64,000 nt of DNA, from positions 8,429-72,428 of the forward strand of contig PMSV01000007.1 of NCBI GenBank assembly GCA_003168265.1, written 5' to 3'. Below, piece after piece: positions 11,136 to 64,000 of this stretch. Origin of the DNA: Chitinophagaceae bacterium. GTDB taxonomy: Bacteria > Bacteroidota > Bacteroidia > Chitinophagales > Chitinophagaceae. Every line of letters starts with the position of its first letter. Position 1 is the first letter of the stretch. The notes beneath the pieces were generated by a model. That model made no database searches. It saw only the letters and a list, made by a program, of their open reading frames with translations, and was not told the DNA's origin. The translations under genes and the position numbers were made by a program.

Positions 11136-11681
11136 ATGGGTAGAAGGGATTTTGAAATACCATTTGTTGGGTTGAAGCCCGGAATCCACGAATTTAGCTA
11201 CCAGGTTACAGACAAGTTCTTTGAGGCCTATCAACAACAGGATTTTCAGCACTGTGAAGCAAAAGTGAAATTGACTTTGGATAAGAAAAACGGTTTTATG
11301 TTGATGCATTTTGAAGTCGGTGGTACACTGAATATCCAATGCGACCGTTGTGGAAATATGCTCCCAATCGAACTTTGGGATGAATTTCGCATCCTGGTAA
11401 AACTCGTGGATGATCCTGAGATCATGAATGAACAGGAAGAAGATCCGGATGTCTATTATTTATCCAAAGGAGAAAGTCACCTTCACCTGTCTGATTGGAT
11501 TTATGAATTCATAAACCTGAGCATACCCAATCAGCGAATGTGCAGAGAGGAGAATATGGGAGGAAGATATTGTAACAAAGAGGTGCTGGCCATGTTGAAA
11601 AAACTGGATTTTAAAACCAATAAGACGCAAAACAATCTCTGGAAAGGATTGGAGAAATTTAAAGACCTGGACAAAAAATAA
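11136..11681 (+). CDS. yceD: YceD/DUF177 family protein
   Basis: CDRC motif; canonical position upstream of rpmF-plsX. Confidence 0.9.
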   Translation: MGRRDFEIPFVGLKPGIHEFSYQVTDKFFEAYQQQDFQHCEAKVKLTLDKKNGFMLMHFEVGGTLNIQCDRCGNMLPIELWDEFRILVKLVDDPEIMNEQEEDPDVYYLSKGESHLHLSDWIYEFINLSIPNQRMCREENMGGRYCNKEVLAMLKKLDFKTNKTQNNLWKGLEKFKDLDKK

Positions 11682-11713
11682 ATTAAAACAAATAAAGACA
11701 AACTTAAAGTAAT

Positions 11714-11905
11714 ATGCCAAACCCGAAACGGCGCCATTCAGCGCAGCGTGGCGCCAAAAGAAGGACGCACTACAAAGCAGAAAAAGTTACACTGAGCAAG
11801 GACAGTTCGACAGGTGAAATTCATGTTCGTCACAGAGCCCATGTCAGCGAAGGAAAACTAGTCTACAAAGGAAAAGTCGTTGCCGAAAAATCTCCCATCA
11901 ACTAA
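11714..11905 (+). CDS. rpmF: 50S ribosomal protein L32
   Basis: MPNPKRRHS...KRRTHYK...HRAH...YKGK; yceD-rpmF-plsX synteny. Confidence 0.96.
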   Translation: MPNPKRRHSAQRGAKRRTHYKAEKVTLSKDSSTGEIHVRHRAHVSEGKLVYKGKVVAEKSPIN

Positions 11906-11970
11906 TTGGGAACGGGCCCGGGGCCTTGCTGATTTTTCCATAAATTACGGTCCCAGATCACTTTATTTAG

Positions 11971-12921
11971 TTGTCGCAGATGAATATAGGCTTAGACATG
12001 ATGGGGGGCGATTTTGCCCCGTTGGAAACCGTAAAAGGCCTGCAATCCTATCTGGCTGAATATTCCTCTCCGGCATTTTTGTTTTTATTAGGGCACGAAA
12101 TCCAGCTAAAAAAGATACTTTCAGAATACCGGATCCCTGCCGATTCCTACCAGATTGTACATGCTCCCGAAGTTATTGGCATGCAGGAACACCCGACAAA
12201 AGCACTTAAGGAAAAACAGCAGTCTTCAATCGCCGTCGGCTTTCATATGCTGGCAACCGGCAAAATAGATGCGCTGATCAGCGCAGGCAATACCGGGGCA
12301 ATGATGGTAGGAGCGCTTTTCAGCATAAAGACACTTGAAGGAGTGCACCGGCCAACTATTGCAACCATCATCCCGAAGGAAAATGGGAAAACAGGAATGC
12401 TGCTCGATGTAGGTCTGAATGCGGATTGCAAGCCGGAAAATCTCAATCAGTTTGCCTTACTAGGGGCGCTCTATGCAAAAAACATCCTGGGAATCGAATC
12501 ACCCCGGGTTGGTCTCATAAATATTGGCGAAGAGGAAGGAAAAGGAAATGTGTTGGCGCAGGCAGCCTACCCTCTTTTGAAGGAAAACAAGCAAATCCAA
12601 TTTATTGGAAATGTGGAAGGAAGGGACTTGTTATTGGATAAGGCCGATGTCATGGTATGTGAAGGCTTTACCGGAAATATCATCCTGAAATTGGCGGAGT
12701 CCATTTACGAAGTCACCCGGCATAAAAACATCAATAACGAATTCTTTGAACGCTTCAATTTTGAAAACTATGGAGGCACGCCGGTCCTTGGGGTTGCCAA
12801 GCCTGTCATTATTGGGCATGGAATCTCACAGGCTAAAGCCTTCAAGAACATGATCATCGTGGCTCAAAAGATCATCGAAACCGATCTGCTCACTAAAATG
12901 AAAACGGCATTTGAATCCTAA
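11971..12921 (+). CDS. plsX: Phosphate acyltransferase PlsX
   Basis: DMMGGDFAP, SAGNTGA, DVGLNAD, NIGEEEGKG and GFTGN motifs. Confidence 0.96.
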   Translation: MSQMNIGLDMMGGDFAPLETVKGLQSYLAEYSSPAFLFLLGHEIQLKKILSEYRIPADSYQIVHAPEVIGMQEHPTKALKEKQQSSIAVGFHMLATGKIDALISAGNTGAMMVGALFSIKTLEGVHRPTIATIIPKENGKTGMLLDVGLNADCKPENLNQFALLGALYAKNILGIESPRVGLINIGEEEGKGNVLAQAAYPLLKENKQIQFIGNVEGRDLLLDKADVMVCEGFTGNIILKLAESIYEVTRHKNINNEFFERFNFENYGGTPVLGVAKPVIIGHGISQAKAFKNMIIVAQKIIETDLLTKMKTAFES

Positions 12922-12985
12922 CCTACCCTGCAAATAGAACTGTTCTCGGGAACCGATCCACAACTACCTCAATCTTAAACAAAAT

Positions 12986-13330
12986 GCTACCAGCTCGTAA
13001 GCCGGATTCTGTTTCTAAACCATCATTTATCTGGTCCGGTCATTACTGACGGGATCTGGCTGCCTACCCGCCAACTCAAGCGGGCCGCTTTCAAACGTTG
13101 GCTTATTTGGCATTACAGCATGCAAGGTTTACCCGCAAAACCTGTTACCAGGAATTGCCGTGAGCTCTTACCTCACGTTTTCACCCTCATTCCTTCCGAA
13201 GAAAGAACAGTTATTTTCTGTGGCACTATCTGTTGATGTGAACATCACCCGGCGCTTAACCGGTGCATTGCCCTGTGCTGTCCGGACTTTCCTTTCCTGC
13301 TAAAACAGGAACGATGGTTCGGCTGGTAGC
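12986..13330 (-). ncRNA. rnpB: RNase P RNA (bacterial type A)
   Basis: Minus strand has GAAAGGAAAGTCCGGACAGCACAGGG and the 3' ACAGAATCCGGCTTAC; terminal GCTACCAGC/GCTGGTAGC arms form P1. Confidence 0.96.
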
Positions 13331-13334
13331 GATG

Positions 13335-13342
13335 CAAATATA
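13335..13342 (-). promoter_or_regulatory. Bacteroidota sigma-70 -7 element (TATATTTG) of rnpB
   Basis: TAnnTTTG consensus 4 nt upstream of the first P1 nucleotide. Confidence 0.8.
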
Positions 13343-13392
13343 AAACTTAAATAGTGATCAGGCATCCTACCCGGGATGAAGGCAGCGAAACT

Positions 13393-14406
13393 TCAGTATT
13401 TCAGATAAACCTCCGTCGCTCCATAGCCATAGGATGGATTGTATTGATTCACAAAGCTTCTCACCTCCTTTTTCAGACGAAGCGCTTCGTGAATTTCGTC
13501 CCTTAGCTTACCTGACCCGACTCCATGAATGAACACTATTTGCGGAAGATGATGCAAAAGAGCAAGTTCATAGAATTTTTCAAATTCCTTCAATTGAAGC
13601 ATGAGCATCTCAAAAGCGCTTAATTTTTCCCAATCACTTGTGATCTTCTCAATGTGCAGGTCCACCACGGAACGGGCAGGCGGCAAATTTTGCCTGCTTC
13701 TTGAGGCATCATAAATCCTGAAATTAGGTGACAATTTAGCCTGAATATCCGGCTTGACCTCTTCTACCCGGTCCGGGTAAACATCCATTAGCTTATATGA
13801 AAAATTCGCTTCTCCTTTCTTTCTAACCTCTTCTGTCTTTGAAAAGACCTGCTTGGCCTTCAACTTCAGTTTTGTTTCAAAAAAATCGGCCTTGCGTTTA
13901 TCTGGCTTTATCAATGCAAATTCAAAACTGAATACCGGGCTATCATTCAGTTTCTCAAAAGGAATATCATGAAGGTAAAAATCCTTAAAAGAAAAGACTT
14001 CGTTTTGGATTCCGAATTCCTCCCCGGTCAGAAAATCCACTCTGTAGTCGAAGTTCAATCCACTTTCCAGGCGATTGACCAGGTGAATTTTCAATGTTTC
14101 GACGAATTCATCTCCAAATTCGTCCTGTGACCAAACTGGCAAAAAAGACAACCAAACACCGTCAGAAACCTGGGAAACAGCCTGCTTTTTCTCACTCCTT
14201 ATATCCTCCACATAGACTTTCTGCTTTTGAGGGACTTTTTTTTCTGTGAACCGTTTGAAATAGGGGAAATCCAACTGATCGATATATGCCGGAAAACTTA
14301 CCCCACGGATTTCCACCATCACCATCTTGGAATTGATGATATCGACAATTTCACCTTCTTCATTGGAATGCAGAACCAGAACTGTATCCCCAATCTGAAA
14401 TTTCAT
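13393..14406 (-). CDS. Smr/MutS2-domain protein (DUF2027-type N-terminus)
   Basis: C-terminal VDLHIE...FIHGVGSGKLR...YGYGATEV Smr motif. Confidence 0.9.
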   Translation of the reverse strand: MKFQIGDTVLVLHSNEEGEIVDIINSKMVMVEIRGVSFPAYIDQLDFPYFKRFTEKKVPQKQKVYVEDIRSEKKQAVSQVSDGVWLSFLPVWSQDEFGDEFVETLKIHLVNRLESGLNFDYRVDFLTGEEFGIQNEVFSFKDFYLHDIPFEKLNDSPVFSFEFALIKPDKRKADFFETKLKLKAKQVFSKTEEVRKKGEANFSYKLMDVYPDRVEEVKPDIQAKLSPNFRIYDASRSRQNLPPARSVVDLHIEKITSDWEKLSAFEMLMLQLKEFEKFYELALLHHLPQIVFIHGVGSGKLRDEIHEALRLKKEVRSFVNQYNPSYGYGATEVYLKY

Positions 14407-14445
14407 TTTACAAAATTACTATTCGTCTGATCAGGATGCAAAAGG

Positions 14446-14472
14446 AAAAGGGCTCATGAGGAGCCCTTTTTT
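14446..14472. terminator. Intrinsic terminator hairpin
   Basis: AAAAGGGCTC-atgag-GAGCCCTTTT with A and T runs on either side, downstream of the C1 peptidase gene. Confidence 0.8.
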
Positions 14473-14492
14473 TATTATCATCATTGATTGAA

Positions 14493-16163
14493 TCAATCAT
14501 TTATTTGCGGACTTTTTGCCTTGTGGGCCGAACGTAGCCTCAACTCCGCAGCCTTCCGCTGTATCTCACCGCTCAGATACTTGGCTTTCACAAAGCCAAG
14601 GATTTCCTGAGAAGTGTAGGCGTTCCGGTTATTCGGGCCTACACCTGAATTATATTTGGAATGTCTGAGATTTTGAGTATTTGCTTCCAGGGTATTTTTG
14701 TTCGCGTCATGAATGCCGCCTGAATTTGGGTTATAATTGGTGATTACACCACTGGAGAAGCTGGCCGGCAACTGACCCGTCGTATAAAAGATATTGTTCT
14801 GCATATTGACATCTCCAAGTACATTTTGCGGGTCTGCGACAAACACCAGGTAATAGTAACCATTCAGATTAGTTGGCACAAGGTAGTTACGGTAAATTTC
14901 AGGAGTTCCAAAAGCATCTTCCGCCATATCTGTTCCCGAAGGAATGTCAACATTGATGGCGCAGGCATCATTGCCCTGACAAACATAACCCCCGGCGGTA
15001 ACACTGTCCGTGACCTCATCATGGAAGATAATACCATAATCATTTGCATTGAATGCATTGTAATACAGGTAATAATAGCTCCAGTTGCTTGATGGGTTAA
15101 CATCCGATTGGCCAATATTATAGATATCAAGTAAAATTTTCCTGGCAGTCGGGTCATTGGTCGGATTATCAGTCGGATCGTTGATGGTAGAATAATCTGA
15201 AAAAACCCAGGCCGCAATATCCGTTGTAGCCGTCGTTGTGGTTGGGATTGTATCAGTAGTAGTGGTGCCATTGGATGCCATATAATACACATTGCCACCA
15301 GATAAATAGGTATTGACCAGCTCATTGTAGTCGATCCAGTAGAAACCGGTCTCCCCCCAGCTAGTGCCCCAGGAATTCACCACATGAAAAGCTCCGCTTG
15401 CCCCCATATTGTCATCATAACCGACAATGCATTGGGCATGAAGGCCTACAGGGCTCGGGAATGTTGCTGTAGTGAGCACACCACCGGTGTAATTTTCAAA
15501 TTCATTGCTAACCTGGATGGCCATAACAATAGGCGTATTATTTGCCAATTGCTGTTTGATAGCCTGTACGGTCGCAGACACGGTTCGGTAGAAAGCGATC
15601 TCATGGTTCGCTGCTTCGGTATTCCAGGAGGCCTGTAATTGGCTCTGAGAACAATTGGTAATATTTGGATCCCAGGGAACCGTAGCCTCTGTGGCTATAC
15701 CATTGGATACCAAAATATCCATGGCACTAGTGATCTGAGTACCGCTTTGACAATCTGCGCCTTTTTCATTATCAGGGATTTCCAGAAATAAATCCTTGGC
15801 GCTCAACTCATAGGATGTATTATTGACCTGCCCGCTATTGTAAGCGTTGGCAACCGCTTCGGAGATTGTTTTGGCATAATAGCCTGTCGACCAACCTACA
15901 CAGGTTTCGGTTTGTCCCTGATCCCCAACCGGCGGACAATATGGAGTAAGGTCCACTTTGGAAGGCAAATTCGTGGAACCCACAAGCGCGGCAGTATTGA
16001 TAGCCTGCGGAACAGTGGAAGGATTGTCTAATCCCGTCAAACCAGTTCCATGCGTCGTGGTAGTGGTGCTATTATTTTTGGGAGATGATTTTTTACAGGA
16101 TGGGATCAGAAAGAACAAGGTTGCTGCAAGAATGAATAACCTGCAATTGGATGACTTTTTCAT
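14493..16163 (-). CDS. Papain-like (C1 family) cysteine peptidase lipoprotein with CARDB-like C-terminal domain
   Basis: Lipobox LIPSC (Cys23); catalytic GDQGQTETCVGW, GLHAQCIVGYDD and VNSWGTSWGETG; GYYYLVFVADPQN...NN resembles CARDB. Confidence 0.85.
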   Translation of the reverse strand: MKKSSNCRLFILAATLFFLIPSCKKSSPKNNSTTTTTHGTGLTGLDNPSTVPQAINTAALVGSTNLPSKVDLTPYCPPVGDQGQTETCVGWSTGYYAKTISEAVANAYNSGQVNNTSYELSAKDLFLEIPDNEKGADCQSGTQITSAMDILVSNGIATEATVPWDPNITNCSQSQLQASWNTEAANHEIAFYRTVSATVQAIKQQLANNTPIVMAIQVSNEFENYTGGVLTTATFPSPVGLHAQCIVGYDDNMGASGAFHVVNSWGTSWGETGFYWIDYNELVNTYLSGGNVYYMASNGTTTTDTIPTTTTATTDIAAWVFSDYSTINDPTDNPTNDPTARKILLDIYNIGQSDVNPSSNWSYYYLYYNAFNANDYGIIFHDEVTDSVTAGGYVCQGNDACAINVDIPSGTDMAEDAFGTPEIYRNYLVPTNLNGYYYLVFVADPQNVLGDVNMQNNIFYTTGQLPASFSSGVITNYNPNSGGIHDANKNTLEANTQNLRHSKYNSGVGPNNRNAYTSQEILGFVKAKYLSGEIQRKAAELRLRSAHKAKSPQIND

Positions 16164-17671: not shown

Positions 17672-17924
17672 ATTTTTCAAAGAAATAATTAACCTTAAAA
17701 TATGCCTAACTTTGCCGTTTCGAAGGGAATCATCTCATGTCAAGTCTTCGTCCTGTGAACATTTATGAATCTTCTGCGACCTGTGAGCCTTCCTGTTTAA
17801 TACGGGATTCTCTCTCTTTAAAGTTTTTTCTTCCGGTATTTAAAAAGCGCAATATTTGCAGCCTGAAAAAAATGGCCCGGCCATATTCAAACTATTTAAA
17901 CTTAACACAAATCGGCTCGCCTTT

Positions 17925-60981: not shown

Positions 60982-61056
60982 GGTCCCGTAGTTCAATGGA
61001 TAGAATAGAAGTTTCCTAAACTTTTGATACAGGTTCGATTCCTGTCGGGACTACCA
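60982..61056 (+). tRNA. tRNA-Arg(CCT)
   Basis: Acceptor GGTCCCG/CGGGACT, anticodon stem GAAGT/ACTTT with loop TTCCTAA, T-loop GGTTCGATTCC, encoded CCA. Confidence 0.96.
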
Positions 61057-62620
61057 AACCGGAATTAGAGTCTAAAAAAAGGGGAGATGAAAATTCTTCT
61101 TGCTGGTAAAGCCTTGATTGTTCTGAGATTGACGAAAAAACTGAGTTCATTTTACAGGTTCGATATGTGTTATTTTGAAAATCATAAGACACACCTTCAG
61201 GAAAAATTAAGTTTTGAAGGCCCTGCTTGATCTCAAAACTGCCAGAAGTCCACATCACATTGAGTTTAGAGCTTAATTTCACAGAGTAATGGACAAAATT
61301 ATCAAGGTTCGATAATTTTAATTCGGTCTTTTTTAGTTCGTTATTAATATGACTTATTTCCTCATTAAACTTTGCTGTGATACGCTTATAAACTTCATCA
61401 TCCTCAATTTTGCCTAATGCATACCTCTCCTGAACTTTAAAAAGGTTATCCTGGGCTTCATGTAGTTTAGTCCTAAGCAATATTTTCGTAACCTCACTAT
61501 CCTTATTCAATGCCTTAAAAGTCAACGAAAGTTGCAACTTTAATGGTTCAATATATTTTTCAGGTATAGTATAGTTAGACAGATATTCATTGAAAGAGGA
61601 GTGCATTATATCAGCGTTTCTATTATGTCTACACCCTCTTTTATTGCACTTGTAGTAGATGGCCTTTTTGTTTACAACAGAATAACCAACGCAAGTAGTT
61701 CCGCAATAGTCACATTTCACGAACCTTTTTAAAGGGAATATGTCATCATTATTCTTTTTCACAAACGTTTTTGCCTGGTCAAAACCAATATTATTTGCTT
61801 TTAGAAATACTTCTTCACTAATAAGCGGTTCATGCCTTCCTTTCACAATCTCATTCCCAAGTAACCTATTTTTAATATACCCGCAATAAAAAGGATTCCG
61901 GAATATATCGAATAACCTTTTCTCATTTATAAAATGACCGAACGATTTACACCGCATCGAGATTTCATAATTTGTCAATCCCTGCTCAACTTTTAATAAA
62001 AAGGCTTTGCGGATAATTTCACCTACATTATTAATAACTAATTTTTGCTCACCCAATTCTTTAGCGTGGACATATCCGATTGGAGCCTTACCCATCCAAT
62101 ACCCATTTAGCAATTTCTCCTTCGACCCAGCCACACATTTTTCTTTACGCAATTCATTATCATACTGTCCGAATAAAAATTGTATGTTTTGCTGAAATGT
62201 TCCGCTGGAAGTTTTTGTATCAGTTGGCTGTGTACATGCAATAATATGCACTCCCATCTTTCTTAATTCATCTGCAACCGAAATAGCAGCCCCTCCCGTT
62301 CGAGAAAATCTATCAATACTATAAACGATAATATAATTGATTTTCTCAGTTGAGCTTCTTACAAATGACAGCATTCTTTGAAACTCTTTCCTGGCATCAC
62401 TTTTAGCGCTTTCATATTTGCGCCCAAACTCCCCTAATACGTTATAGCCATTTTTGTCTGCATATTGTTTGCAATATTTTAATTGTATTTCCAAGCTATC
62501 ATTGTTTTCAGCTTGTTCCTTTGTGGAAACACGCGTATAAATAACAACGTTTTTCTTGTTATTATCATGCGAATCGGCGTTGGCTTTATAAAGGCTTTTT
62601 ATTAATTCGATATTACTCAT
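61016..62620 (-). CDS. Large serine recombinase (resolvase + recombinase + Zn-ribbon + coiled coil)
   Basis: YTRVST catalytic Ser, ESAK, DRFSR, APIGY, CDYC...YYKC...C. ATG at 62620. The 3' end overlaps tRNA-Arg on the opposite strand. Confidence 0.93.
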   Translation of the reverse strand: MSNIELIKSLYKANADSHDNNKKNVVIYTRVSTKEQAENNDSLEIQLKYCKQYADKNGYNVLGEFGRKYESAKSDARKEFQRMLSFVRSSTEKINYIIVYSIDRFSRTGGAAISVADELRKMGVHIIACTQPTDTKTSSGTFQQNIQFLFGQYDNELRKEKCVAGSKEKLLNGYWMGKAPIGYVHAKELGEQKLVINNVGEIIRKAFLLKVEQGLTNYEISMRCKSFGHFINEKRLFDIFRNPFYCGYIKNRLLGNEIVKGRHEPLISEEVFLKANNIGFDQAKTFVKKNNDDIFPLKRFVKCDYCGTTCVGYSVVNKKAIYYKCNKRGCRHNRNADIMHSSFNEYLSNYTIPEKYIEPLKLQLSLTFKALNKDSEVTKILLRTKLHEAQDNLFKVQERYALGKIEDDEVYKRITAKFNEEISHINNELKKTELKLSNLDNFVHYSVKLSSKLNVMWTSGSFEIKQGLQNLIFPEGVSYDFQNNTYRTCKMNSVFSSISEQSRLYQQEEFSSPLFLDSNSGLVVPTGIEPVSKV

Positions 62621-62775
62621 AAATACAAGTTGCTCTGAAATTAAAAAATTGATACGCAAGGATTGAAAATTGATACAGGACATTGATCACCGAAACACCT
62701 TCTTCATCGGAGATATTTTGAAAACCTTCAAATTGCTTTAATTGTGATAAGGTTATTATTGACATAATTGTAGGA

Positions 62776-63498
62776 TTAAAGGCGAACACTTATTGTTTTA
62801 TAATCAACTGAAAATATTGTTTCGATAAATTTACATATGGCGTCTTCATTTGGCTCAATAATTATAGGTTCATCTTCTGATTCAATGATAATGCTTGTAT
62901 TCCGACTATTTTGTAAAAATTTTAATGCTGTTGTTTCTTTGGGCTTTAGCATTTTCGTATTTATCACATAACTCAAAAATTCTCCATTCGCTAAAAATTC
63001 TTTCATCAGAAGTTGAAGATCAATTGTTACGAATTTTGAATACTTACTTAGTTTCATTTTTCTCTCGAAATCTTCTGGCCTTGCCACACTAAACTGACCG
63101 TCTTTCGTTATTACAAAGAATGAGTGTTTACGATTAAATAACGGATATAGAACAGCTTTTTCAAACTCCAACATTGCATAAAATTTGTCTTTTTTCGAGA
63201 ATAACCTATTAGCTGCGATTTGAATGATGCCATTACTAAAATTCAATTCTTTCAATTCTTTAATCAATAATATCCAAATAAACTCGTAAAAATTAAATTT
63301 ATCCCAACCCGGTCTCTTCTTTTTTTGGCCCGAATCCTCGGATGAAACCAAGCCTTCAGAAATCCAATATCTTAATTGCCTCACAGATTTTTCTTGATCC
63401 TGACTTGTAACCTTCTTTATGTCTTTTATTCCAAAATATTTACTCTTCAATTCCAAATGAACTCTCTCTTCTTCAACTGTCAGCTTTCCTCCTTTCAT
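62776..63498 (-). CDS. MerR-like winged-HTH DNA-binding protein
   Basis: RQLRYWISEGLV...GWDKFNFYEFIWILLIKELKELNFS fits the MerR-type HTH pattern. Confidence 0.7.
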   Translation of the reverse strand: MKGGKLTVEEERVHLELKSKYFGIKDIKKVTSQDQEKSVRQLRYWISEGLVSSEDSGQKKKRPGWDKFNFYEFIWILLIKELKELNFSNGIIQIAANRLFSKKDKFYAMLEFEKAVLYPLFNRKHSFFVITKDGQFSVARPEDFERKMKLSKYSKFVTIDLQLLMKEFLANGEFLSYVINTKMLKPKETTALKFLQNSRNTSIIIESEDEPIIIEPNEDAICKFIETIFSVDYKTISVRL

Positions 63499-63508
63499 AA
63501 ATATTTTG

Positions 63509-63559
63509 TTATTTGTAAATTTACAAATAAAAATTTAAAATGACAACATTTGTCATTTT
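63509..63559. promoter_or_regulatory. Two adjacent palindromes (putative operators) between divergent element genes
   Basis: Perfect 22-bp TTATTTGTAAATTTACAAATAA at 63509-63530; AAAATGACAA-cat-TTGTCATTTT at 63537-63559. Confidence 0.65.
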
Positions 63560-63639
63560 TAGGTCAAAAAAATACAAATAATTAATAAAATGAGCTTAAA
63601 ATATTGCAAACTATATCAGCAGTTTCTATTTTGTAAAAT

Positions 63640-64000
63640 ATGAAAAAAATGATTTTTTACGTCCCAATCAATCTCGATCTTAAACAATTAATTTTCAAGC
63701 ATTTAATATTGAGTAAAGAGTTGAAGGTAACTGAAGGAAAGATAGCCTTCATATGCCATTCGCTATTCAGTTCTATAATCATGCACAGAAGTGAGATCGA
63801 GGATAGTGATAATCCTTATGTCCCTTTATGTTCTAAAATTCTTGATTTAGCCGTTCATGACTATTCAAAGTCGCTTCAGTTTCTTCTGGAAACTGGTATT
63901 ATTGAATCAGATAACTCTTATCTCGCGGGAGATAAATGCAAGGGATATTGTTTTAAAAACCCATACCGTGATAGAGAATTTAAAAAAGTCTATATAGAAG
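63640..64000 (+). CDS. Element-encoded hypothetical protein, 5' part only (possibly replication-related)
   Basis: Open to the window edge: MKKMIFYVPINLDLKQ...YVPLCSKIL...LLETGIIESDNSYLAGDKCKGY. Absent from the ORF track because it has no stop in the window. Confidence 0.7.
   Translation, partial: MKKMIFYVPINLDLKQLIFKHLILSKELKVTEGKIAFICHSLFSSIIMHRSEIEDSDNPYVPLCSKILDLAVHDYSKSLQFLLETGIIESDNSYLAGDKCKGYCFKNPYRDREFKKVYIE

What the first reader, a model, noticed from the sequence alone, without database searches (positions are those of the whole stretch)
60982..61100. Large serine recombinase whose last 13 codons and stop are the antisense strand of its target tRNA
Seen: the ORF runs through the 3' half of tRNA-Arg(CCT). 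Positions 61057 to 61016 read TTG GTA GTC CCG ACA GGA ATC GAA CCT GTA TCA AAA GTT TAG (LVVPTGIEPVSKV*), and the TAG lies antisense to the anticodon loop, centred in a perfect AAGTTT-cct-AAACTT repeat. Established: tRNA sites are typically tyrosine-integrase targets, and in mycobacteriophage BPs an attP inside the repressor gene changes its C-terminus on integration. Inference: attP lies inside the recombinase gene, so integrated and excised forms encode different C-termini. This could be a built-in switch for stability or directionality. Convergent tRNA transcription, with no terminator visible, could also silence the gene when integrated.
Basis: partly seen in the sequence, partly recalled or inferred. 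Interest (0 to 1): 0.82.

Follow-up and report, generated by a model that had tools for sequence, protein, structure and literature searches.

The report
Serine integrase ending inside its tRNA
A mobile element's large serine integrase gene runs into the tRNA-Arg gene it is inserted at because its attachment site lies inside the gene, so the enzyme's last amino acids are swapped whenever the element enters or leaves the chromosome; hundreds of Bacteroidota integrases, apparently undescribed, share this layout.

Summary
A 534-aa large serine recombinase (LSR) gene (61016-62620, minus strand) ends 41 nt inside tRNA-Arg(CCT) (60982-61056), at the edge of a low-GC island. A metagenome contig (L200) is 100% identical to window 63289-61047 over 2243 nt and then diverges exactly after GTAGTCCC (61054-61047). 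It continues into an attP-type arm instead of the tRNA. The unintegrated gene therefore ends ...LVVP-LEQFSNHFMDDLRRLAAMIA* (545 aa), and the integrated one ends ...LVVP-TGIEPVSKV*.

This holds across the family. About 1450 Bacteroidota homologues were found. Of 80 genomic loci, 65 read antisense into a tRNA or tmRNA gene. In a relative that targets tRNA-Pro, attP, attL and attR were all recovered and share a 16-bp core inside the ORF. In P' arms the T-loop motif TCGAAC sits 5 bp further out than in the tRNA, the known attP/attB signature of LSRs.

The native tail shows purifying selection. Whether the swap acts as a regulatory switch is untested. In 61 of 62 loci a tRNA terminator is embedded antisense in the ORF; this window's copy has lost it. 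This is a new variant of the phage Mx8 IntP/IntX principle, in a recombinase class not known to target tRNAs.

The parts
60982..61056 (+). tRNA-Arg(CCT) gene, intact, with CCA encoded. It is the integration target and holds the attB B' half-site plus the core.
   Evidence: ARAGORN; Rfam RF00005 at 67.1 bits.
61016..62620 (-). Large serine recombinase gene, integrated (attL) form, 534 aa. An upstream in-frame ATG at 62683 would give 555 aa.
   Evidence: ORF list; Pfam Resolvase and Recombinase; 1453 homologues, annotated start at M22; model of a relative matches SPbeta-type, Bxb1, PhiC31 and LI integrases.
61016..61046 (-). Host-derived end of the integrated ORF: the last base of the Pro codon, the codons for TGIEPVSKV, and TAG. 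It is replaced by LEQFSNHFMDDLRRLAAMIA* in the attP form.
   Evidence: Identity between the window and L200 stops at 61047.
61047..61054 (-). Predicted common core GTAGTCCC, the antisense of tRNA nt 67-74, which contains the crossover. The right boundary is observed. The left boundary is inferred from relative L167 (core GTAGTCCT).
   Evidence: The ZD-motif spacing places the central dinucleotide at about 61048-61051 (inference).
61033..61038 (+). T-loop GTTCGA (TCGAAC on the coding strand), 16 nt from the Val-codon G. This is the proposed zinc-ribbon-domain motif of the B' half-site. In the element's P' arm the same hexamer sits at +21.
   Evidence: Rutherford et al. 2013 (PMC3783163) for the 5-bp rule.
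61055..61110 (-). Element-borne P arm inside the ORF (codons ...EEFSSPLFLDSNSGL). Relatives carry an antisense intrinsic terminator for the tRNA here; in this element it has decayed.
   Evidence: No terminator found and fold z = -0.1 to -1.1, against a median of -21 kcal/mol and z = -6.9 in 61 other loci.
62613..62789 (-). Small ORF (about 50 aa conserved) overlapping the LSR start. It belongs to a conserved three-gene module and is a candidate accessory or directionality factor (speculative).
   Evidence: 74% identity to the equivalent ORF in L003.
62776..63498 (-). 240-aa protein with a weak MerR-type HTH, conserved upstream partner of the LSR.
   Evidence: Pfam MerR_1 E = 4.5e-4, below the curated cut-off; 48% identity to the L003 neighbour.
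61057..64000 (.). Left part of the integrated low-GC element. It runs off the window, so attR is not present.
   Evidence: GC profile; no P'-type junction in the window or in the 4.9 kb of element held in L001.

Best explanation
The window holds the attL end of a small integrative element inserted into tRNA-Arg(CCT) by its own large serine recombinase (LSR).

Shown:
- The element's attP lies inside the 3' end of the LSR gene.
- The LSR frame runs through the P arm and through a short core identical to the antisense of the tRNA's 3' acceptor strand and discriminator (GTAGTCCC, tRNA nt 67-74). It then enters the P' arm, where 20 more codons (LEQFSNHFMDDLRRLAAMIA), a stop and a hairpin with a T-run complete the gene.
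- Integration recombines within the core. The tRNA is rebuilt, with its last few nucleotides and CCA supplied by the element.
- The native tail and its terminator move to attR at the far end of the element. The LSR gene instead reads into the antisense tRNA until the first stop, which lies opposite the anticodon (TGIEPVSKV*).

Inferred, site recognition: it follows the standard LSR rule. The recombinase domain reads the acceptor-stem sequence on both B' and P'. The zinc-ribbon domain reads the universal T-loop hexamer TCGAAC, placed 5 bp further from the crossover in P' (+21) than in the tRNA (+16). This would explain how the family has spread over at least 15 tRNA species and tmRNA.

Inferred, function: the native tail is a selected part of the protein. 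The prophage therefore makes a tail-swapped isoform whose activity, stability or directionality probably differs, as in phage Mx8 IntP/IntX. In this element the tRNA terminator that relatives embed in the ORF has decayed. tRNA read-through could therefore also run antisense into the integrated gene.
For: For this element: L200 equals window 63289..61047 at 100% over 2243 nt and then diverges exactly at the end of GTAGTCCC. Its continuation has TCGAAC at +21, a tail homologous to those in L216 and P0121, and a hairpin with T-run after the stop (-23.4 kcal/mol, z = -3.8).

Full att set in a relative with 37% identity (tRNA-Pro). attL is in L010 and L013, attP in at least 5 contigs, and attR in at least 18 contigs with at least 4 different host flanks. 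All share the 16-bp core TGTCGGAATGAGGCGA inside the ORF. The tails are AIDTFCFH* (attP) and LERPTPTSRT* (attL).

Closest relative P0002 (68% identity, same tRNA). A P'-type junction at L167:4952 has core GTAGTCCT. The reconstructed tail is homologous to the tail of the attP-form protein P0005, with 6 synonymous against 3 non-synonymous differences in 13 codons.

Family scale. There are 1453 homologues. 111 of the 120 best have T-loop-antisense tails, and 65 of 80 loci overlap a tRNA or tmRNA. TCGAAC sits at +21 in 8 of the 10 distinct kinds of P' arm (9 read from DNA; P0121 assumed from its S-N dipeptide), against +16 in all tRNA arms. The 5-bp rule is from PMC3783163. None of 55 distinct sequences has a stop in the LSR frame across the 78 nt before the core, against 42 and 52 of 55 in the other two frames. 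The only recombinase within the proposed 6.6-kb element of L167 (4952-11575) is the LSR.
Against: Neither attR nor an empty attB was recovered for this element. L200 is a short linear contig, so a circle is not proven. The junction could be an inter-element junction in a tandem array, as seen in L167.

The left boundary of the core and the exact crossover are inferred by analogy.

The tail is predicted disordered in the relative P0005 (pLDDT about 30, residues 515-551). Tails fall into at least three sequence types and range from 3 to about 26 residues after the S-N dipeptide. A conserved function is therefore not assured.

The tRNA-Pro and tRNA-Ser subfamilies (L011, L008) do not show the shifted TCGAAC.

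No experiment bears on the activity of either isoform.
Confidence: 0.85

Rival explanations
1. Neutral by-product. attP happens to overlap the 3' end of the gene, and the last 20-40 residues are a dispensable, disordered extension. Swapping them for tRNA-antisense residues has no effect on the enzyme.
For: The AlphaFold model ends its folded part at helix 493-510, and residues 515-551 have pLDDT 29-35. Integrated tails are dictated purely by tRNA sequence and run from 5 to 65 residues after the Gly of G-x-E-P. Native tails differ between subclades, and one (L084) has only 3 residues after S-N.
Against: The ORF stays open through the terminator and core in 55 of 55 distinct sequences, while the other two frames are closed in 42 and 52 of them. 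Synonymous changes outnumber non-synonymous ones in the DIL..EAFI.RYK block, 6 to 3. Between L200 and L216 there are 5 synonymous differences at conserved residues. Mx8 is a precedent in which such a swap does change integrase behaviour (PMC6070905).
Confidence: 0.35
2. The main regulatory consequence of integration is transcriptional. Convergent read-through from the strong tRNA promoter runs antisense into the LSR gene and silences it in the prophage. The peptide swap is secondary.
For: This element has no terminator between the tRNA and the LSR. 61 of 62 loci carry a canonical terminator exactly there (12-17 bp stem and T-run, median -21 kcal/mol), which implies that read-through matters enough to be selected against.
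Against: No transcript data are available. The family norm is to block read-through, not to use it. Loss of the terminator here may simply be decay. This rival is compatible with the best explanation.
Confidence: 0.2
3. L200 is not attP. It is the same element at a secondary chromosomal site, a junction between two tandem elements, or an assembly chimera.
For: L200 is only 2854 nt and linear. Its P'-side ORF has no homologue among the loci held, and a scan of viral contigs found no second copy. Tandem P'-type junctions do exist in L167.
Against: The break falls exactly at the core boundary. The continuation has the family-specific P' architecture: TCGAAC at +21 and an in-frame tail homologous to those in L216 and P0121. 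A chimera or a random site would not have this. A tandem junction would still carry a genuine P' arm and give the same conclusion about the ORF.
Confidence: 0.08
4. The LSR did not mediate the tRNA insertion. Another recombinase further inside the element did, and the ORF/tRNA overlap is coincidental.
For: Reviews treat tRNA targets as the domain of tyrosine integrases (PMC4383910; PMC5704250). Most of this element lies outside the window.
Against: The same geometry and frame occur in 65 of 80 loci across many tRNA species. Cores are short, 8-16 bp. The P' and B' arms show the LSR-specific 5-bp motif shift. Within the proposed 6.6-kb element of L167 (4952-11575) the LSR is the only recombinase.
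Confidence: 0.03

Closest known systems
Myxococcus phage Mx8 IntP/IntX (Tojo et al. 1996; Magrini et al. 1999; summarised in PMC6070905)
   Same: attP lies inside the integrase coding sequence. Integration creates a recombinant gene with a new 3' end. From my own recollection, the target is a tRNA gene locus.
   Different: The Mx8 integrase is a tyrosine recombinase. Here the enzyme is a large serine recombinase with a short core and LSR-type half-sites. The arrangement is shared by a large family and is combined with an antisense tRNA terminator inside the ORF.
Integration-dependent immunity of mycobacteriophages BPs/Brujita (Broussard et al. 2013; cited from memory)
   Same: attP lies inside a phage gene, so integration at a tRNA changes the protein's C-terminus and with it its stability.
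   Different: There the split gene is the repressor and the integrase is a tyrosine recombinase. Here the recombinase's own gene is altered, and no degradation tag has been identified.
SSV-type archaeal integrases (PMC7253208; cited in PMC4383910)
   Same: The recombination site lies within the integrase ORF, and the target is a tRNA gene.
   Different: SSV integration splits the gene into two inactive parts. Here only the last 20 codons are exchanged, and all catalytic and DNA-binding domains stay intact.
Canonical large serine integrases (Listeria A118/LI, Bxb1, PhiC31, SPbeta)
   Same: Same domain order: catalytic, recombinase, and zinc ribbon with coiled coil. Short att sites. The ZD motif sits 5 bp further out in attP than in attB (PMC3783163).
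   Different: Sequence identity is at most about 27%. Those enzymes target protein-coding or intergenic sites, their attP lies outside the int ORF, and none is known to use the tRNA T-loop as a recognition motif.
Tyrosine-integrase tRNA/tmRNA islands (Islander signature, PMC4383910)
   Same: Insertion is at the 3' part of a tRNA or tmRNA gene, and the element restores the gene.
   Different: A different recombinase superfamily. The displaced fragment is only 8-16 bp, so Islander-type searches for a tDNA fragment would miss it. [quoted passage not shown]
Ralstonia phage phiRSM small serine recombinase at tRNA-Ser (Askora et al. 2011; from memory, not checked here)
   Same: A serine-family recombinase that uses the 3' end of a tRNA gene as attB.
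   Different: It is a small resolvase/invertase-type enzyme, not an LSR. To my knowledge it has no ORF/att overlap and no C-terminal exchange.

Membership tests
Large serine recombinase (serine integrase) | N-terminal resolvase-type catalytic domain with the nucleophilic Ser in a Y-x-R-V-S-T motif | tested here: met
   Pfam PF00239, E = 9.9e-26, residues 46-194. YTRVS is invariant in alignment A1.
Large serine recombinase (serine integrase) | C-terminal recombinase domain followed by a Cys4 zinc ribbon with an inserted coiled coil | tested here: met
   PF07508, and PF13408 in some homologues. The AF2 model of relative P0005 has a beta-ribbon at 301-335 and long helices at 354-432. Foldseek top hits are full-length integrases 9dxd, 9iu2, 9rah and 4kis.
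Large serine recombinase (serine integrase) | attP and attB half-sites share an inner motif, and the outer (ZD) motif is displaced 5 bp outward in attP | tested here: met
   TCGAAC is at +16 in the tRNA arm and +21 in the P' arm of this element. The same holds in 8 of the 10 distinct kinds of P' arm. The rule is from PMC3783163. It is not seen in the tRNA-Pro and tRNA-Ser subfamilies.
Large serine recombinase (serine integrase) | Strand exchange at a 2-bp central dinucleotide, with directionality set by an RDF | not testable with these tools
   Only the 8-bp window that contains the crossover can be defined (61047-61054). The conserved 240-aa and roughly 50-aa neighbours are untested candidates.
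Integrases whose ORF spans attP (Mx8 IntP/IntX type) | attP core lies inside the integrase coding sequence | tested here: met
   The core GTAGTCCC forms the codons V-V-P(1,2) of the ORF, and the attP form continues in frame for 20 codons. In the tRNA-Pro relative the 16-bp core encodes (S)VGMRR.
Integrases whose ORF spans attP (Mx8 IntP/IntX type) | Integration produces a gene with a different 3' end | tested here: met
   534-aa ...TGIEPVSKV* in the window against 545-aa ...LEQFSNHFMDDLRRLAAMIA* in L200.
Integrases whose ORF spans attP (Mx8 IntP/IntX type) | The two isoforms differ in recombination activity or specificity | not testable with these tools
   Only indirect evidence is available: purifying selection on the native tail and an ORF that stays open up to the core.
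tRNA-targeting genomic island (Islander definition) | Intact tDNA at one end and a displaced tDNA fragment at the other | tested here: inconclusive
   An intact tRNA lies at attL. attR is outside the window and outside L001. In relatives the repeated fragment is only 8-16 bp.
tRNA-targeting genomic island (Islander definition) | Tyrosine-family integrase | tested here: not met
   The adjacent recombinase belongs to the serine family. There is no tyrosine recombinase within the proposed 6.6-kb element of L167 (4952-11575).

The most novel reading that the evidence does not exclude
The C-terminal exchange is a hard-wired directionality or activity switch for a serine integrase. The full-length, attP-encoded enzyme carries a conserved amphipathic tail that tunes coiled-coil or RDF interactions, or protein stability. 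Integration removes this tail, so the prophage can only make a variant biased towards quiescence or towards excision. In parallel, the family reads the universal tRNA T-loop with its zinc-ribbon domain and the acceptor stem with its recombinase domain. That would make it a naturally modular LSR scaffold that can be retargeted from one tRNA to another.
Probability: 0.3. Interest if true: 0.85.

Novelty: new variant of a known kind. Interest (0 to 1): 0.68.

Why it matters
Serine integrases are the main tools for inserting large DNA segments, and their directionality is thought to rest entirely on coiled-coil geometry plus a separate directionality factor. A large natural family in which the enzyme's own C-terminus is rewritten by the reaction it catalyses would add a new level of control. 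So far this is known only for the tyrosine integrase of phage Mx8.

The finding also overturns the working rule that tRNA and tmRNA targets belong to tyrosine integrases (PMC4383910, PMC5704250). Island finders that look for long tDNA fragments or for tyrosine integrases will systematically miss these elements in Bacteroidota.

The apparent division of labour is of practical interest. The T-loop would be read as a universal outer motif and the acceptor stem as the specificity determinant. This suggests how target choice evolves, and how it might be re-engineered.

The antisense terminator packed into the coding sequence is a neat case of one DNA stretch serving three roles: protein, att arm and terminator.

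Tried and rejected
- attR in the window: I looked for attR or any tRNA 3' duplicate in the window and in the longer contig L001. None is there, and L001 ends 4.9 kb into the element.
- Long repeats: I searched 59 genomic loci for repeats of at least 12 nt of the tRNA 3' end within 10 kb. There were none. This first suggested large elements, but the real reason is that cores are only 8-10 bp; a motif-based search then found the junctions in L167.
- Circularity: I tested L003, L004, L005 and L009 for terminal overlaps. There were none, so these attP-type contigs cannot be called circles.
- T-arm mimic: I considered that the hairpin upstream of the core mimics the T-arm or is an inverted half-site. 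I rejected this because the stems are unrelated to T-stems in most loci and are followed by T-runs on the tRNA strand, which marks them as terminators.
- Mirror motif: I looked for a mirror-image GTTCGA on the P arm and did not find one. Only the left flank of the L167:4952 junction, which may itself be a P-arm relic rather than a host B arm, has a GGTTGAA-like motif.
- Element genes: Pfam and PHROGs gave nothing for the element's other genes.
- Known phages: the cultured-phage database holds no relative above about 27% identity.
- Second copy of P': a scan of viral contigs for this element's P' arm found nothing. The ORF on the P' side has no homologue among the loci held.
- Tail structure: the AF2 model of the relative P0005 gave no confident structure for its tail.
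- Literature: ten full-text searches found no description of tRNA-targeting LSRs. The nearest hint is serine recombinases in a few Elizabethkingia type II ICEs, elements that sit next to tRNA genes, mostly tRNA-Leu-CAA (bioRxiv 402107).
Full report
**1. What is in the window**

ARAGORN calls tRNA-Arg(CCT) at 60982-61056 on the plus strand, with CCA encoded. Rfam's tRNA model scores 67 bits.

On the minus strand an ORF runs from 62683 to a TAG at 61018-61016 and ends ...DSNSGLVVPTGIEPVSKV*. The start supported by homologues is 62620, which gives 534 aa. The 'AAGTTT-cct-AAACTT' repeat is just the anticodon stem-loop.

The protein has the Resolvase and Recombinase Pfam domains. GC content drops from about 0.48 to about 0.33 exactly at the tRNA 3' end. 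The tRNA therefore marks the left edge of an integrated element that runs off the window.

**2. The overlap is a family property**

A protein search returned 1453 homologues at E <= 1e-10. Nearly all that carry a source name come from Bacteroidota. Of the best 120, 111 have the antisense T-loop peptide (G-I/L/F/V-E-P and variants) in their tails.

I examined 80 genomic loci:
- 59 LSR ORFs end inside a tRNA on the opposite strand.
- 4 more read right through a tRNA-Leu.
- 2 end in a tmRNA gene.

The targets include Met, five Leu isoacceptors, three Arg isoacceptors, Glu, Phe, Ala, Val, Thr, Pro, and a Ser-like acceptor.

The frame relative to the tRNA is always the same. The nearly invariant Val codon is the complement of A73-C74. 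A target with G73 gives Ala instead.

No characterised phage carries a relative above about 27% identity. More distant LSRs (24-26% identity) also read into tRNA-Ala.

**3. A complete att set in a relative**

IMG/VR contigs carry one LSR (37% identity to the window's) in two states.
- In L010 and L013 the ORF reads into tRNA-Pro(CGG) and ends ...GMRR-LERPTPTSRT*.
- In L011, L012, L014 and L015 there is no tRNA and it ends ...GMRR-AIDTFCFH*.

I then searched for the sequence to the right of the breakpoint and found 25 loci. In five it follows the LSR 3' end, which is attP. In eighteen it follows host DNA with at least four different flanks, each with a terminator hairpin; these are attR.

All three kinds of junction share the 16-bp core TGTCGGAATGAGGCGA. 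This is the antisense of tRNA-Pro nt 60-75, and it lies inside the ORF.

This proves the principle. attP is inside the gene, the element carries the tRNA's 3' end, and the codons after the core differ between the free and integrated forms.

**4. The closest relative**

P0002 is 68% identical to the window's LSR and has the same tRNA-Arg(CCT) target. It sits in a 701-kb contig (L167).

Upstream of its LSR there are three junctions of the form core + 12-13 nt + TCGAAC, at positions 963, 2193 and 4952. The nearest one shares only GTAGTCCT with attL, which is tRNA nt 67-74.

Joining the P arm to this P' arm gives the tail ...LVVLNPQLSNQLSKDILLAEAFINRYKTEIDRLCA*. This is clearly homologous to the tail of P0005 (...LSNLKHADILAIEAFISRYKEIF*). 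P0005 is a 67%-identical LSR found in attP configuration with no tRNA nearby.

In the 13-codon block DIL..EAFI.RYK, six differences are synonymous and three are not.

One caveat applies. The L167 island is composite: it has low GC up to the locus end, an IS110 element, and three P'-type junctions. The flank to the left of 4952 looks like a P-arm relic rather than host DNA.

**5. The window's own attP junction**

A pattern built from the P arm and core was scanned against metagenome contigs. Most of the 49 hits are chance matches.

L200 (Ga0302326_10255012, 2854 nt) is not. It is 100.000% identical to window 63289..61047 over 2243 nt. It then diverges exactly after GTAGTCCC (61054-61047).
- The window continues GACAGGAATCGAACC..., which is the tRNA.
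- L200 continues TCTCGAACAGTTTTCGAACCATTTTATGGATGATTTAAGGCGACTGGCTGCTATGATAGCCTGA.

The unintegrated gene therefore encodes ...LVVP-LEQFSNHFMDDLRRLAAMIA* (545 aa). Its stop is followed at once by a hairpin and T-run (-23.4 kcal/mol, z = -3.8).

L216 carries a tail of the same type (...TEHISNSFVEDLKSLAALAA*). Compared with L200 it has five synonymous differences at conserved residues and mostly conservative replacements. P0121 shares the D-L-R-x-L-A motif.

In the integrated ORF, everything from 61046 down to the stop is therefore host DNA. L-V-V and the first two bases of the Pro codon belong to the element.

**6. How the site is probably read (inference)**

Rutherford et al. showed that the zinc-ribbon-domain (ZD) motif occupies half-site positions 16-24 in attP and 11-19 in attB, a 5-bp shift (PMC3783163).

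Here TCGAAC, the T-loop, starts 16 nt from the Val-codon G in every tRNA arm. It starts 21 nt from it in the P' arms of L200, L216, L003, L005, L084, L127 and the three L167 junctions. The peptide sequence of P0121 suggests the same spacing. The chance of one such placement is about 2e-4.

If TCGAACC is placed within positions 11-19 of B', the central dinucleotide falls at tRNA nt 68-71 (window about 61048-61051). That is inside the observed 8-bp core.

In the tRNA-Pro attP, an inverted repeat TCGCCT-N12-AGGCGA has its axis between nt 72 and 71, which fits this placement.

The tRNA-Pro and tRNA-Ser subfamilies (L011, L008) have longer cores that reach the T-loop, and they do not show the shifted hexamer.

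**7. A terminator hidden in the ORF**

Counting the 59 genomic loci plus L006, L010 and the window, 61 of 62 loci share a feature. The 46 nt immediately 3' of the tRNA, on the tRNA strand, fold into a 12-17 bp GC-rich hairpin followed by TTTTTATTTT (median -21 kcal/mol, median z = -6.9). This is a canonical intrinsic terminator.

It lies antisense inside the LSR ORF and accounts for the family's consensus 'K-x-G ... S-x-L-V'. It sits on the P arm and travels with the element. It replaces the host terminator, which is left behind at attR.

The single exception is this window (z between -0.1 and -1.1). One arm (CCGGAATT) survives and the other has decayed.

The family norm suggests that tRNA read-through into the integrase gene is normally selected against.

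**8. Is the tail functional?**

Arguments for:
- The ORF is never closed across the 78 nt before the core: 0 of 55 distinct sequences, against 42 and 52 of 55 in the other two frames. No locus has a stop before the tRNA.
- Synonymous differences are in excess in the tails.
- Phage Mx8 is a precedent (PMC6070905).

Arguments against:
- AlphaFold places the last folded helix of P0005 at residues 493-510 and gives pLDDT about 30 for residues 515-551.
- Tails fall into several sequence types and vary in length.

I regard the structural claim as established. The regulatory claim is plausible but open.

**9. Comparison with what is known**

[quoted passage not shown] It lists Mx8 and SSV as integrases whose ORF extends across attP (PMC4383910). 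The 2017 review of integrative mobilizable elements (IMEs) describes serine-recombinase elements as inserting within genes, and tyrosine-recombinase elements as using tRNA 3' ends (PMC5704250). Ten full-text searches found no description of this family. The only hint is serine recombinases in some Elizabethkingia ICEs that sit next to tRNA genes, mostly tRNA-Leu-CAA.

The enzyme passes the membership tests for an LSR. It also passes the two sequence-level tests for an 'attP-in-ORF' integrase. It fails the tyrosine-integrase criterion of classical tRNA islands.

I class it as a new variant of a known kind.

Noticed in passing
61057-61110 in the window; 61 other loci (for example L087, L079, L075): A canonical intrinsic terminator for the tRNA lies antisense inside the LSR coding sequence in 61 of 62 loci (12-17 bp stem and T-run). 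It explains the family's C-terminal 'K-x-G...S-x-L-V' consensus. The window's copy is the only decayed one.
   Followed up: yes
L167:963, 2193 and 4952: Three P'-type junctions (core + 12-13 nt + TCGAAC) lie in a row upstream of one LSR, with an IS110 transposase between them. This looks like a tandem array of elements or relics at one tRNA-Arg. Such an array is unexpected if attL is not a substrate for a second LSR integration.
   Followed up: partly
L116:6615-6988 and L129:2584-2979: Family members also end inside tmRNA (ssrA) genes, with tails such as ...EPEGFEPSSKQQTIELSTCLF. The acceptor-like core GGTGGAGCT in the attP form of P0005 may likewise be tmRNA-type or tRNA-Ala-type.
   Followed up: partly
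L105:~11560-11610; L114:~11550-11600 (intact tRNA-Val at 17814-17891); L218: Some LSR ORFs read into a tRNA 3' fragment that has no 5' half. In L114 the intact tRNA-Val lies 6.2 kb further on. A second element may have inserted later and displaced the fragment.
   Followed up: no
window 62613-62789 and 62776-63498; L003:8210-9120: A conserved three-gene module: a roughly 240-aa protein with a weak MerR-like HTH (48% identity), a roughly 50-aa ORF overlapping the LSR start (74% identity), and the LSR. The two small partners are candidates for a directionality factor or regulator.
   Followed up: partly
L200 (reverse complement) 2244-2330: The P' arm of the window's element holds two TCGAAC hexamers, at +10 and +21 from the Val-codon G. 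A strong hairpin with T-run follows directly after the free-form stop. Other attP forms lack such a terminator.
   Followed up: partly
L003:1105-5090 and 11269-15185: In the attP-configured relative, the LSR module lies between hsdM/hsdS on one side and hsdR plus a YgjP-like gene on the other. This suggests that a type I restriction-modification system is the element's cargo and is contiguous only across the attP junction.
   Followed up: no
L010/L012:8971-9591; L010:11738-13521: In the gut-type tRNA-Pro element a 206-aa invertase-like small serine recombinase sits just upstream of the LSR. On the host side, tRNA-Phe is followed by a Bacteroides-type tyrosine integrase, so two different elements flank a tRNA pair.
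   Followed up: no
L042:9062-9137 and L047:11497-11572: LSRs only 24-26% identical to the window's also read antisense into tRNA-Ala (tail ...GGAYETRTRDPNTASVVRYQLR*). The arrangement therefore extends beyond this family.
   Followed up: no
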